Source: a virus. From it: a stretch of 64,000 nt of DNA. Under the pieces are notes generated by a model, which was not told where the DNA came from, did no database searches, and worked only from the letters and a program-made list of their open reading frames with translations. The DNA lies in the IMG/VR virus record IMGVR_UViG_3300029268_000006, positions 68,135-132,134 of that record. One strand, written 5' to 3'. A program made the position numbers and the translations under genes. Of the stretch, positions 61,346 through 62,189 are shown piece by piece (within the stretch, counting starts at the first letter, position 1; every line of letters starts with the position of its first letter).

Positions 61346-61807
61346 TTAATTTTTAAATGTTCCTATTATTTGATTTTTACTATAATCTATTTTTTGATAT
61401 TCCTTTTCTCTTTTATTATAATATGATGGTTTAATCCATTTATCTCTTTTGTGTTTAAATAATGAAAATGTTTTTTTGATAAAAAATCTTTCATTAACTA
61501 ATTTTTTATCAAATTCGGTATATGCTGCAACATTTGTACAAAATATAGAATGCCAATATAATTCATAAGCTAATTGCCAAGGTTCTATTTCACGAACATT
61601 GTATAATCTATACCATGTCCAATCATCAGAATCTTCATCACCCACACGTATATCATCAATCATATCATACCAATACATTTTGTTTTCATATTTACACAAT
61701 CCAGTCATTGGTCCGTCCCAATAATTGGAATAGAATAAAAATTTTACATTCTCTAATTCTTTCATTTTTCTTTTAATTATTTTGTAACTTGAAATTATTT
61801 TTATCAA
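61346..61807 (-). CDS. hypothetical protein; likely start MKELENV
   Basis: YSNYWDGPMTGLC motif. Confidence 0.55.
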   Translation of the reverse strand: MIKIISSYKIIKRKMKELENVKFLFYSNYWDGPMTGLCKYENKMYWYDMIDDIRVGDEDSDDWTWYRLYNVREIEPWQLAYELYWHSIFCTNVAAYTEFDKKLVNERFFIKKTFSLFKHKRDKWIKPSYYNKREKEYQKIDYSKNQIIGTFKN

Positions 61808-62153
61808 GTAATTGTTCTTGTTTATATTCTCTTAATAATAAGGGCATAGATGATGTGAGCCTTCTTGTTTCATCAGAAGGTTCAATACATATAGCTGTAA
61901 TCTGATTATCGATGTCAGATTCCCTAAATACGGAATACTTTAATTTGGAATTTTCTAATTTTTGGATGAGTTGTTTTAACTCTGATTCATTTTCGACACT
62001 AAGAACTGCTAAATATGGATTTGAATTCCACCTTTGTGCGATGTGTGGATGATCGAAAATGAATTGGGCTACACTATGAATCGATTGAGTCGATTGGTAG
62101 CCTGGTGATAAATCTCTTCGTGAAACGACTGTTAATTTGTGTACCTATGACAT
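61773..62153 (-). CDS. Pth2-like peptidyl-tRNA hydrolase family protein with an in-frame TAG at codon 3, not in the ORF track
   Basis: MS*VHKLTVVSRRDLSPGYQSTQSIHSVAQF...LAVLSVENESELKQL...YSVFRESDIDNQITAICIEP...LL; 127 codons. Confidence 0.8.
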
Positions 62154-62189
62154 AATTTTAAATTTATTTGTTATTATATATTAAATATT

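What the first reader, a model, noticed from the sequence alone, without database searches (positions are those of the whole stretch)
61773..62184. Pth2-like gene gated by an amber codon at position 3 (ATG TCA TAG), near a phage amber-suppressor tRNA
Seen: the minus strand reads ATG-TCA-TAG followed by 123 uninterrupted sense codons of a Pth2-fold protein. There is no in-frame ATG/GTG/TTG before the conserved N-terminal strand KLTVVSRRDL. A late-promoter motif lies at 62175-62184 and a CUA tRNA at 60370-60440. Known: AUG-NNN-stop minigenes such as lambda bar promote peptidyl-tRNA drop-off, which Pth relieves, and RF2 autoregulates through an internal stop. Inferred: the enzyme is made only when UAG is read through (suppressor present or RF1 limiting), coupling suppression or termination stress to peptidyl-tRNA recycling. 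Caveat: the Pth2 G-K-x-x-x-Q Lys is Tyr here, so hydrolase activity is not assured.
Basis: partly seen in the sequence, partly recalled or inferred. Interest (0 to 1): 0.92.

Follow-up and report, generated by a model that had tools for sequence, protein, structure and literature searches.

The report
Stop-codon-gated phage Pth2 operon
A giant phage that otherwise uses the normal genetic code keeps a UAG stop as the third codon of a small tRNA-hydrolase-like gene, and again in a tiny leader gene, in the same gene block as its own UAG-reading tRNA, so these genes are probably made only while that tRNA overrides the stop.

Summary
The window's minus strand reads ATG TCA TAG followed by 123 sense codons of a Pth2-fold protein. 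A canonical tRNA(CUA) lies 1.3 kb downstream on the same strand.

The stop is not an error and not a Gln codon of a recoded genome:
- Among 64 distinct homologous starts from huge phages, 55 keep ATG + 0-5 sense codons + TAG, one has TAA with a tRNA(UUA), and 8 have no stop.
- Flanking codons vary synonymously, and CAA/CAG never occupies the site.
- 47 of 56 gated loci carry the matching suppressor tRNA on the same strand.
- Five lineages hold a second TAG inside the fold.
- The 132-kb record and a 501-kb relative are standard-code.

New here: the same block holds a Shine-Dalgarno-led minigene, M-S-UAG-R-N-K-S-P-stop (consensus x-K/R-P-P-stop). Directly after it comes a 10-nt sequence complementary to the start codon region of the next gene, a conserved 140-aa protein just upstream of the tRNA.

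Best reading: a suppressor-tRNA-dependent translational gate plus a readthrough-sensing leader. The enzyme's substrate and the biological purpose are unknown.

This scan found the same module before on other DNA (hundreds of notes). I found no publication describing it.

The parts
62174..62185 (-). Promoter-like motif TTTAATATATAA, 21-32 nt upstream of the Pth2-like start codon
   Evidence: 25 matches with at most 1 mismatch against 11.5 +/- 3.3 expected. Exact copies lie upstream of other gene starts (4734, 38834, 57785). The same motif sits upstream of homologues. Timing class is unknown.
61773..62153 (-). Pth2-like gene, 126 codons plus TAA, with UAG as codon 3 (TAG at 62145-62147)
   Evidence: The gate is conserved in 56 of 64 distinct homologous starts.
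61346..61765 (-). 139-aa ORF of unknown function, a variable passenger of the block
   Evidence: Searches find no family. Homologues occur in only 4 related loci.
61041..61334 (-). 97-aa ORF of unknown function, a variable passenger
   Evidence: no family and no homologue in the related loci.
61031..61040 (-). Shine-Dalgarno-like AAGAAGGGAG in front of the leader minigene
   Evidence: The consensus AGAAAGGAGG sits at the same place in at least 13 related loci.
60998..61024 (-). Leader minigene ATG TCA TAG AGA AAT AAA TCA CCA TAA (M-S-UAG-R-N-K-S-P-stop); gate TAG at 61016-61018
   Evidence: The form M-x-UAG-x-(K/R)-(P/S/G)-P-stop occurs in 36 of 85 loci. Pro codons vary synonymously. The terminal stop is never the gated codon.
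60985..60994 (-). Anti-start element GTTTCCATAA, 3 nt after the leader stop
   Evidence: It is complementary to the h140 start region. The pairing holds in 97.3% of cells in 11 loci against 41-57% in slid controls. One compensatory change was seen (L006).
60497..60919 (-). h140: conserved 140-aa helical protein of unknown function; its start region TTATGGAAAC (60912-60921) pairs with the anti-start element
   Evidence: the family has 44 clusters, all unnamed; it always lies directly upstream of the suppressor tRNA; the model is a four-helix bundle with no informative match.
60466..60473 (-). TAACTTTG, which fits the Bacteroidota -7 promoter box TAnnTTTG, in front of the tRNA
   Evidence: a similar ...TTTG box precedes the suppressor tRNA in at least 8 related loci. 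The consensus is from my own knowledge and was not tested.
60445..60461 (-). G+C-rich hairpin CCGGG-GAAACTT-CCCGG, 4 nt before the tRNA 5' end
   Evidence: a hairpin occupies this position in at least 10 related loci, each with a different stem sequence.
60369..60440 (-). tRNA with anticodon CUA, a canonical class I cloverleaf without an encoded CCA; the only tRNA in the 132-kb record
62961..63578 (-). Pol-beta-type nucleotidyltransferase gene upstream on the same strand, a neighbour in some relatives only
   Evidence: PF18765, PF01909; phrog_388; next to the module in L005, L008, L078/81/83.

Best explanation
The finding is one part of a conserved suppressor-tRNA module of huge phages that otherwise use the standard code. 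The block runs on the minus strand in this order:
1. A promoter-like motif.
2. The Pth2-like gene with UAG as codon 3.
3. Two variable ORFs.
4. A leader minigene with UAG as codon 3.
5. A conserved 140-aa gene (h140).
6. A tRNA(CUA) with what looks like its own promoter.

**Shown by comparison**
- The early stop is selected as a stop codon.
- It travels with a tRNA whose anticodon matches it.
- The codons behind it are under protein-level selection.

**Inferred**
- Ribosomes that start at ATG end at UAG after two residues unless the phage tRNA(CUA) decodes it. Output of the Pth2-like protein would then track suppressor activity.
- In the leader, readthrough carries the ribosome to a (K/R)-(P/S)-P-stop end.
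- There the ribosome sits over the anti-start sequence and frees the start codon of h140.
- Both proteins are therefore made only when suppression works.

**Guessed**
- The Pth2-like enzyme hydrolyses an acyl- or peptidyl-tRNA ester that builds up when stops are overridden, or it acts on the suppressor tRNA itself.
- Whether this is feed-forward supply or negative feedback is open.
For: **Conservation of the gate**
- 90 loci give 64 distinct starts: 55 with TAG, 1 with TAA, 8 with none.
- The number of sense codons between ATG and the stop is 1 in 35 starts, 2 in 8, 3 in 10, 5 in 1 and 0 in 2.
- The codon before the stop varies synonymously (ACA/ACG/ACT, AAA/AAG, TCA/TCG).
- The base after the stop is A in 40, G in 14, C in 2 and T in 0. 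This is the 3' context that favours amber suppression in E. coli, from my own knowledge.

**Linkage to the tRNA**
- 47 of 56 gated distinct loci hold the cognate suppressor tRNA on the same strand within 4-6 kb.
- 5 of the 9 without one are truncated loci.

**Matching codon and anticodon**
- In L076 both the Pth2 gate and the leader gate are TAA.
- Its tRNA is UUA and its leader ends in TAG.

**Readthrough rather than restart**
- A second in-frame TAG lies inside the fold in L005, L011/L031, L019, L116 (the 735-kb phage LR756501) and L054.
- Leader codons after the TAG keep K/R-P-P with synonymous Pro codons.

**Standard code**
- Coding density of the own 132-kb record is 91.9% under code 11 and 92.6% under code 15.
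- The 501-kb relative gives 89.7% and 89.8%.
- TAG ends 6 of 157 and 50 of 732 genes.

**Cultured phages**
- Tenacibaculum phage pT24 has ATG AAA TAG plus a tRNA-Sup.
- Mycobacteriophages Bxz1 (ATG TAG GTG) and Myrna (GTG TAG GTG) each have a tRNA(CUA) within 0.7 kb.

**Leader switch**
- The minimum-energy fold pairs the h140 start with the sequence just after the leader stop in 9 of 12 loci.
- The probability that the start is unpaired rises from 0.00-0.28 to 0.47-0.87 in 11 of 14 loci, but only when a ribosome is placed on the leader's terminal stop, not on the gate.
Against: - Nothing here is experimental. Expression, charging and amino-acid identity of the tRNA are unknown, and the CUA tRNAs of the family are very diverse.
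- The own record is only 19% complete, so recoded regions elsewhere cannot be excluded.
- In mycobacteriophages a GTG start follows the TAG directly, so the gene could be made without readthrough there.
- ATT follows the stop in 27 of 56 starts, and ATT is a weak start codon.
- Eight homologues lack the gate, and four of these still have a CUA tRNA next door.
- Leader helix: covariation is weak, with 1 compensatory pair and 122 of 500 shuffles as good.
- Leader helix: the fold of the region is no more stable than shuffles, z = -0.85.
- Leader helix: three loci (L013, L031, L019) lack it.
- The window's leader ends S-P, not P-P.
- The TAA/UUA case rests on one contig whose Pth2 copy also has a 1-nt frameshift.
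Confidence: 0.72

Rival explanations
1. Ordinary genome-wide recoding. The phage reads TAG as an amino acid (code 15, as in Lak and crAss-like phages), and this TAG is just one more sense codon in a late gene.
For: - A phage-encoded tRNA(CUA) is present.
- TAG is a rare terminator, ending 6 of 157 genes.
- Public gene calls of homologues print Q at the site, so they were made under a TAG=Q code.
- Only 19% of the genome is in hand.
- Distant homologues sit in Lak phages.
Against: - Coding density is the same under codes 11 and 15 in 132 kb of this record and 501 kb of a relative. TAG still ends genes there.
- The Pth2-like gene and the leader are the only convincing in-frame TAGs in the record.
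- The site is never CAA/CAG in 64 distinct homologues. Where there is no stop it is Thr or another residue.
- The module exists in cultured standard-code phages.
- Recoded phages use in-frame stops in 26-71% of genes (10.1101/2021.08.26.457843).
Confidence: 0.1
2. Two-codon upstream ORF with re-initiation. TAG is a true stop of a tiny ATG-NNN-TAG ORF, and the Pth2-like protein starts at a non-canonical or adjacent codon just after it. The tRNA(CUA) is linked for another reason.
For: - Bxz1 and Myrna have a GTG directly after the TAG, and this is the annotated start.
- ATT follows the stop in 27 of 56 starts.
Against: - Many post-stop codons cannot start translation: AAC, AGC, ACA, ACT, CTT, AAA, GTA.
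- A second TAG inside the folded domain in five lineages cannot be bypassed by re-initiation.
- The gate codon and the anticodon change together in L076.
- Leader residues after the TAG are conserved as a peptide.
Confidence: 0.08
3. Broken gene or read error. A single C-to-T change or an assembly error made a nonsense codon in a gene that is dead or mis-sequenced.
For: One base change from CAG would give TAG. The record is a metagenome assembly.
Against: - The same early stop is found in 56 of 64 distinct homologues at 41-78% protein identity from many samples, and in finished genomes of cultured phages.
- The rest of the frame is intact, and the family's invariant residues are kept.
Confidence: 0.01

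Closest known systems
Stop-codon-recoded phages with phage suppressor tRNAs (TAG read as Gln, 'code 15': Lak, crAss-like and others; Borges et al., preprint 10.1101/2021.08.26.457843)
   Same: A phage-encoded suppressor tRNA makes in-frame stops readable. In-frame stops are proposed to delay translation of chosen genes until the tRNA is active. TAG is rare as a terminator.
   Different: - Here the genome is standard-code over 132 kb, and over 501 kb in a relative.
- The stop sits at one fixed place, codons 2-6, of one small gene and of a leader minigene in the same gene block as the tRNA.
- The gated genes are not structural or lysis genes.
- The preprint does not mention a hydrolase.
prfB (release factor 2) autoregulation through an early in-frame UGA (own knowledge)
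   Same: An early in-frame stop in a gene of the termination or tRNA-recycling machinery makes its synthesis depend on how that stop is handled.
   Different: - prfB needs a +1 frameshift and senses the level of its own product.
- Here the frame continues and the key is a separate tRNA.
- Whether the product feeds back on readthrough is unknown.
Leader-peptide translational attenuation (ermC, cat and cmlA leaders) and Pro-Pro-stop termination arrest (hCMV gp48 uORF2, PMC4605324; TnaC, PMC8450073)
   Same: A short ORF with a Shine-Dalgarno sequence lies upstream. A proline-ending peptide stands before a stop. A downstream start codon is sequestered by pairing with the sequence that a paused ribosome would cover.
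   Different: - The signal sensed would be readthrough of a UAG inside the leader, not a drug or an amino acid.
- The peptide is only 7-9 residues long, too short to fill the exit tunnel.
- Arrest was not shown.
Lambda bar minigenes (AUG-NNN-stop; own knowledge)
   Same: The form is the same: a start codon, one sense codon and a stop, upstream of a link to peptidyl-tRNA hydrolase biology.
   Different: - bar minigenes are free-standing and toxic only when host Pth is limiting.
- Here the triplet opens a real gene, and the stop matches a co-encoded tRNA.
- No drop-off effect was tested.
Archaeal and eukaryotic Pth2 (PF01981; 2zv3, 3erj, 1xty, 1q7s)
   Same: The fold is the same (TM 0.67-0.77) and the Q-x-x-H and T-A-I/V-x-I-x-P motifs are kept.
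   Different: G-K becomes G-Y, D-A-G-L-T-Q becomes E-S-D-I-D-N, and a four-residue loop is missing. It is a separate subfamily (phrog_1866, unknown function).

Membership tests
Pth2 peptidyl-tRNA hydrolase (Pfam PF01981) | Match to the family profile above the curated cut-off | tested here: met
   27.2 bits against a cut-off of 23, E 4.7e-6; a family profile hits four solved Pth2 chains at E 4.6e-7 to 5.4e-5.
Pth2 peptidyl-tRNA hydrolase (Pfam PF01981) | Pth2 alpha/beta fold | tested here: met
   the model has pLDDT 86. The top 14 Foldseek hits are Pth2 structures (2zv3, 3erj, 1wn2, 1xty, 1q7s), with TM 0.64-0.77 for the crystal structures.
Pth2 peptidyl-tRNA hydrolase (Pfam PF01981) | Conserved G-K ... 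D-A-G-L-T motifs that carry the residues reported as catalytic in S. solfataricus Pth2 (Lys and Asp; from memory, the paper is not held) | tested here: not met
   Lys is Tyr, Asp is Glu (invariant E78), Thr is Asp (D82), and a four-residue loop is deleted. The replacements are themselves conserved in the family.
Pth2 peptidyl-tRNA hydrolase (Pfam PF01981) | Hydrolysis of peptidyl-tRNA | not testable with these tools
   This needs an enzyme assay or complementation of an E. coli pth(ts) strain.
Stop-codon-recoded (code 15) phage | Phage-encoded suppressor tRNA for the recoded stop | tested here: met
Stop-codon-recoded (code 15) phage | In-frame TAG in a large share of genes, with higher coding density under the alternative code | tested here: not met
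   density is 91.9% against 92.6% (own record) and 89.7% against 89.8% (501-kb relative); only the Pth2-like gene and the leader hold a convincing in-frame TAG. The own record is 19% complete.
Autogenous control by an early in-frame stop (prfB type) | Early in-frame stop in a gene of the termination or tRNA-recycling machinery, conserved among homologues | tested here: met
   56 of 64 distinct starts.
Autogenous control by an early in-frame stop (prfB type) | The product itself changes how the stop is read, closing a loop | not testable with these tools
   No data exist on the enzyme's substrate.
Leader-peptide translational attenuation | Short translated ORF upstream of the regulated gene | tested here: met
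   a Shine-Dalgarno sequence plus ATG. The peptide after the gate is conserved with synonymous codon changes in 36 of 85 loci.
Leader-peptide translational attenuation | Alternative pairing that hides the downstream start and is opened by a ribosome on the leader | tested here: inconclusive
   the helix is paired in 97.3% of cells, and the in-silico switch works in 11 of 14 loci. But there is only one compensatory pair, the shuffle control is not exceeded (122 of 500), the fold z-score is -0.85, and the helix is absent in three loci.
Leader-peptide translational attenuation | Ribosome arrest at the end of the leader | not testable with these tools
   The (K/R)-(P/S/G)-P-stop end resembles known Pro-stop termination arrests (PMC4605324). 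Arrest needs toeprinting or ribosome profiling.

The most novel reading that the evidence does not exclude
The block is a self-contained readthrough sensor and governor.
- The phage tRNA(CUA) overrides UAG in the infected cell.
- A leader peptide that can finish only after UAG readthrough reports the level of suppression and switches on h140.
- The UAG-gated Pth2-like enzyme, with its altered active site, acts on the suppressor tRNA's own ester products.
- Stop-codon override is thereby held at a set level.

This would give the 'orphan' suppressor tRNAs of standard-code jumbo phages both a target and a control loop.
Probability: 0.15. Interest if true: 0.92.

Novelty: new variant of a known kind. 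Interest (0 to 1): 0.78.

Why it matters
**An open question.** Many jumbo phages with the standard code carry suppressor tRNAs whose targets nobody could name. The XacN1 paper says so outright (PMC5852040). This module gives them at least two natural targets that sit in the same gene block as the tRNA.

**Annotation.** About a thousand sequence clusters of this Pth2-like family exist (1181 at E <= 1e-10). Many public gene calls start inside the fold, and pT24's annotated CDS starts 45 codons late.

**Testable soon.** The gate is present in cultured phages of Tenacibaculum and Mycobacterium smegmatis, so it can be tested at the bench now.

**If the leader model holds.** It would be a natural sensor of stop-codon readthrough. 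That is of interest for translational control and as a part for genetic-code engineering.

Tried and rejected
I could not read the DNA behind the public proteins that print Q at the gate. I inferred TAG=Q gene calls because P0006 has Q at both places where the matching locus L005 has TAG.

**Searches that gave nothing useful**
- A search for more TAA-gated relatives of L076 found only L076 itself.
- The amino-acid identity of the tRNA(CUA) could not be settled. The 65 distinct CUA tRNAs resemble many isoacceptor types. The window's tRNA is nearest to phage tRNA-Trp genes and has G73.
- h140 has no Pfam or PHROG family. It has no usable Atlas hit and no Foldseek match. VIA-align gave only generic four-helix-bundle matches at Z <= 6.8.
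- Rfam found no ribozyme or other RNA family in the window besides the tRNA.
- A further early-TAG ORF in the own record (record coordinate 61538; also 57583) and early-TAG ORFs in the 501-kb relative (200783, 265499) were looked at. Most are probably non-coding frames. The one at 265499 is an HD-domain fragment.
- The window ORF at 39291-40184, with a TAG at codon 20 under TAG=Q, is an IS1595 transposase with an ordinary start downstream, not a gate.
- The paper on Pth2 active-site residues was not held. Other papers read gave no residue list.
- Four literature searches for the gate found no description.

**Not attempted**
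Full report
**1. The observation**

On the minus strand the window reads ATG (62153-62151), TCA, TAG (62147-62145). It then runs through 123 sense codons to TAA at 61775-61773. After the TAG the next in-frame ATG, GTG or TTG lies 100 codons downstream. No canonical start therefore precedes the conserved strand K-L-T-V-V-S-R-R-D-L.

The protein passes the Pfam PTH2 cut-off (27.2 against 23 bits). 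It also matches phrog_1866, a family of unknown function, over nearly its whole length. An AlphaFold2 model (pLDDT 86) has archaeal Pth2 and human Bit1 as its top Foldseek matches, at TM 0.67-0.77.

A canonical class I tRNA with anticodon CUA lies at 60369-60440 on the same strand. It is the only tRNA in the whole 132-kb record.

The motif TTTAATATATAA at 62174-62185 is enriched in the window, with 25 hits against 11.5 +/- 3.3 expected. It sits 21-35 nt upstream of several start codons. That it is 'late' cannot be tested.

**2. What the genome is**

The window is the last 64 kb of a 132,134-base IMG/VR virus record judged 19% complete. The phage should therefore be about 700 kb, at 26% G+C.
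- The nearest named relative of the gene is the 735-kb uncultured phage LR756501, at 58% protein identity.
- A 501-kb relative is judged 70% complete.
- The window carries a fused type II topoisomerase, a chaperonin, an SMC-like ATPase, an IS1595 transposase and the start of an IS605 OrfB gene.

**3. The stop is conserved as a stop**

Two scans of viral contigs, plus records of cultured and uncultured phages, gave 90 loci with 64 distinct gene starts.
- 55 have TAG, one has TAA and eight have no stop.
- The stop follows ATG after one sense codon in 35 starts, two in 8, three in 10, five in 1 and none in 2.
- The codon before it changes synonymously (ACA/ACG/ACT, AAA/AAG, TCA/TCG) while the stop stays.
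- CAA or CAG never stands at the site. In the ungated homologues the aligned residue is Thr or another residue.
- The base after the stop is A in 40, G in 14, C in 2 and T in none.

Public proteins that print M-S/T-Q are gene calls under a TAG=Q code. P0006 shows Q at both places where locus L005 has TAG.

The eight ungated copies are mostly high-G+C lineages.

**4. The key travels with the lock**
- In 47 of 56 gated distinct loci a tRNA whose anticodon matches the gate lies on the same strand within the 4-6 kb fetched. Five of the nine exceptions are truncated loci.
- In L076 the Pth2 gate is TAA and the tRNA 1.8 kb downstream has anticodon UUA. That copy also has a one-base frameshift, and no second TAA example was found.
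- Cultured phages show the same layout:

| Phage | Start of the Pth2-like gene | tRNA | Note |
|---|---|---|---|
| Tenacibaculum phage pT24 | ATG AAA TAG | tRNA-Sup, 2.5 kb upstream | Annotated CDS starts 45 codons late |
| Mycobacteriophage Bxz1 | ATG TAG GTG | tRNA(CUA) within 0.7 kb | tRNA annotated 'tRNA-OTHER' |
| Mycobacteriophage Myrna | GTG TAG GTG | tRNA(CUA) within 0.7 kb | tRNA annotated 'tRNA-Ser' |

**5. Readthrough, not restart, and not a recoded genome**

Five lineages carry a second in-frame TAG inside the folded domain. L005, L011/L031, L019 and LR756501 have it at F-P-TAG-I, and L054 has it at another site. Re-initiation after a two-codon ORF cannot explain these.

Many codons after the gate cannot start translation.

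Under a simple longest-ORF gene call, coding density is the same under both codes, and TAG still ends genes:

| Record | Density, code 11 | Density, TAG as sense | Genes ending in TAG |
|---|---|---|---|
| Own 132-kb record | 91.9% | 92.6% | 6 of 157 |
| 501-kb relative | 89.7% | 89.8% | 50 of 732 |

Recoded phages use in-frame stops in 26-71% of genes (preprint 10.1101/2021.08.26.457843). Here only the Pth2-like gene and the leader described next hold a convincing in-frame TAG.

**6. A second gated element in the same block**

Earlier notes of this scan mention a tiny leader gene, so I scanned the block for ATG-NNN-TAG.

Between the 97-aa ORF and the 140-aa ORF lies AAGAAGGGAG, then six bases, then the minigene at 61024-60998. 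Its nine codons are ATG TCA TAG AGA AAT AAA TCA CCA TAA.

At least 13 related loci have the same arrangement: AGAAAGGAGG, then ATG-NNN-TAG, then one to three codons, then K/R, P (or S or G), P and a stop. A looser scan finds it in 36 of 85 loci, including distant ones.
- The proline codons differ between loci (CCA CCT, CCG CCA, CCG CCC, CCA CCG). The codons behind the UAG are therefore kept at the peptide level, which argues that they are translated.
- The terminal stop is TAA, or TGA once, wherever the gate is TAG.
- In L076 the leader gate is TAA and the terminal stop is TAG.

**7. What the leader may do**

Three bases after the leader stop stands GTTTCCATAA (60994-60985). It is the reverse complement of TTATGGAAAC (60921-60912), which holds the start codon of the 140-aa gene.
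- In 9 of 12 loci the minimum-energy fold pairs these two stretches across 60-110 variable bases.
- On an alignment of 11 loci the ten pairs are formed in 97.3% of cells, against 41-57% when the partner is slid.
- With a ribosome footprint placed on the gate stop, the start region stays paired (probability unpaired 0.00-0.28). With the footprint on the leader's terminal stop, the probability rises to 0.47-0.87 in 11 of 14 loci.

The limits are plain:
- Only one compensatory change was seen (L006, C-G for U-A), and the shuffle control is not exceeded (122 of 500).
- The region folds no better than shuffles, z = -0.85.
- L013, L031 and L019 lack the helix.
- The window's leader ends S-P rather than P-P.

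Pro-Pro before a stop is a known termination arrest in another system (PMC4605324). Arrest here is only inferred.

**8. The other parts**

The 140-aa protein is conserved (44 clusters, none named). It always lies directly upstream of the suppressor tRNA. Its model is a four-helix bundle with no informative match.

In front of the tRNA stands TAACTTTG. This fits the Bacteroidota -7 promoter box TAnnTTTG (from my own knowledge). A hairpin follows it, and at least ten related loci have a hairpin at this place, each with a different stem sequence. The tRNA probably has its own promoter and a 5' leader hairpin.

**9. The enzyme**

Against solved Pth2 sequences the family keeps Q-x-x-H and the T-A-I-x-I-x-P strand. 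It differs in three ways:
- G-K is replaced by G-Y.
- D-A-G-L-T-Q is replaced by E-S-D-I-D-N.
- A four-residue loop is missing.

These replacements are invariant or nearly so within the family. It is therefore a distinct, constrained subfamily with the Pth2 fold. Activity on peptidyl-tRNA is plausible but not shown. The family is large, with 1181 clusters at E <= 1e-10. Many public gene calls begin inside the fold, as expected if gene callers skip the gate.

**10. Reading and rivals**

I give 0.72 to the reading that full-length Pth2-like protein requires decoding of UAG by the co-encoded tRNA(CUA). I also hold, less firmly, that the leader reports the same event to the 140-aa gene.

| Rival | Probability |
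|---|---|
| Genome-wide recoding | 0.10 |
| Two-codon uORF with restart | 0.08 |
| Error or pseudogene | 0.01 |

The purpose is open. The enzyme could be supplied in step with stop override (feed-forward), or it could limit the suppressor (feedback).

**11. Novelty**

Four full-text searches found no description. The XacN1 paper states that no targets of its CUA suppressor tRNAs could be found (PMC5852040).

This scan has met the same module many times on other DNA: 302 notes in at least 201 genomes. One later check there rated the bold circuit reading at 20 in 100.

I class it as a new variant of a known kind: stop-codon gating by a phage suppressor tRNA, here confined to a small self-contained block in a standard-code phage.

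Noticed in passing
window 39291-40184 (+): An IS1595-family (ISXO2-like) transposase gene (PF12762, E 4.4e-25) sits inside this huge-phage fragment. Its apparent in-frame TAG at codon 20 lies upstream of the likely true start.
   Followed up: partly
window 63772-63999 (+), runs off the window end: This is the start of an IS605 OrfB/TnpB-type gene (HTH_OrfB_IS605, E 2.7e-19). The record ends here.
   Followed up: no
window 57819-59192 (+): A 457-aa protein built of about seven repeats of a roughly 45-aa unit ending W-L-D-E-(F/I)-C-S-H-M, with no Pfam family. Relatives lie near the module in L011/L031 and in the 501-kb relative.
   Followed up: partly
L053:7650-7815 (IMGVR_UViG_3300023196_003249): This locus has a TAG-gated Pth2-like gene and a TAG-gated leader. 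The two tRNAs after its h140 homologue have anticodon GAA with an unusual C at position 37, and no CUA tRNA lies within 6 kb.
   Followed up: partly
L114:5233-5305 and 6001-6282 (Prevotella phage Lak-A1, MK250017): The distant Pth2-like homologue of Lak-A1 has no early stop. A tRNA with anticodon UUA lies 0.7 kb upstream of it.
   Followed up: no
L076:6200-6240 (IMGVR_UViG_3300024262_000234): The only TAA-gated copy has a one-base deletion in an A run that shifts the frame of the Pth2-like gene. This is either an assembly error or decay.
   Followed up: partly
record of L016 (G001), about 265158-265508 (-): An HD-domain-like fragment (V-K-L-C-D-R-I-A-N) is preceded by ATG-ATA-CCA-TAG. Homologues lie just upstream of the Pth2-like gene in L080-L083.
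   Followed up: partly
window 60445-60473 (-): A TAnnTTTG-like box and a G+C-rich hairpin stand directly before the suppressor tRNA. Related loci keep the hairpin with entirely different stems, which points to a Bacteroidota-type promoter and a structured 5' leader.
   Followed up: partly
L036, L043, L059 (G+C 0.55-0.60): Ungated high-G+C homologues (M-A-T-I-K-x-G-D-K-L) have no CUA tRNA. Instead they have tRNA-like genes with odd anticodon loops (called 'ttca' or 'tc') and a tRNA-Glu 1.3-1.8 kb downstream.
   Followed up: no
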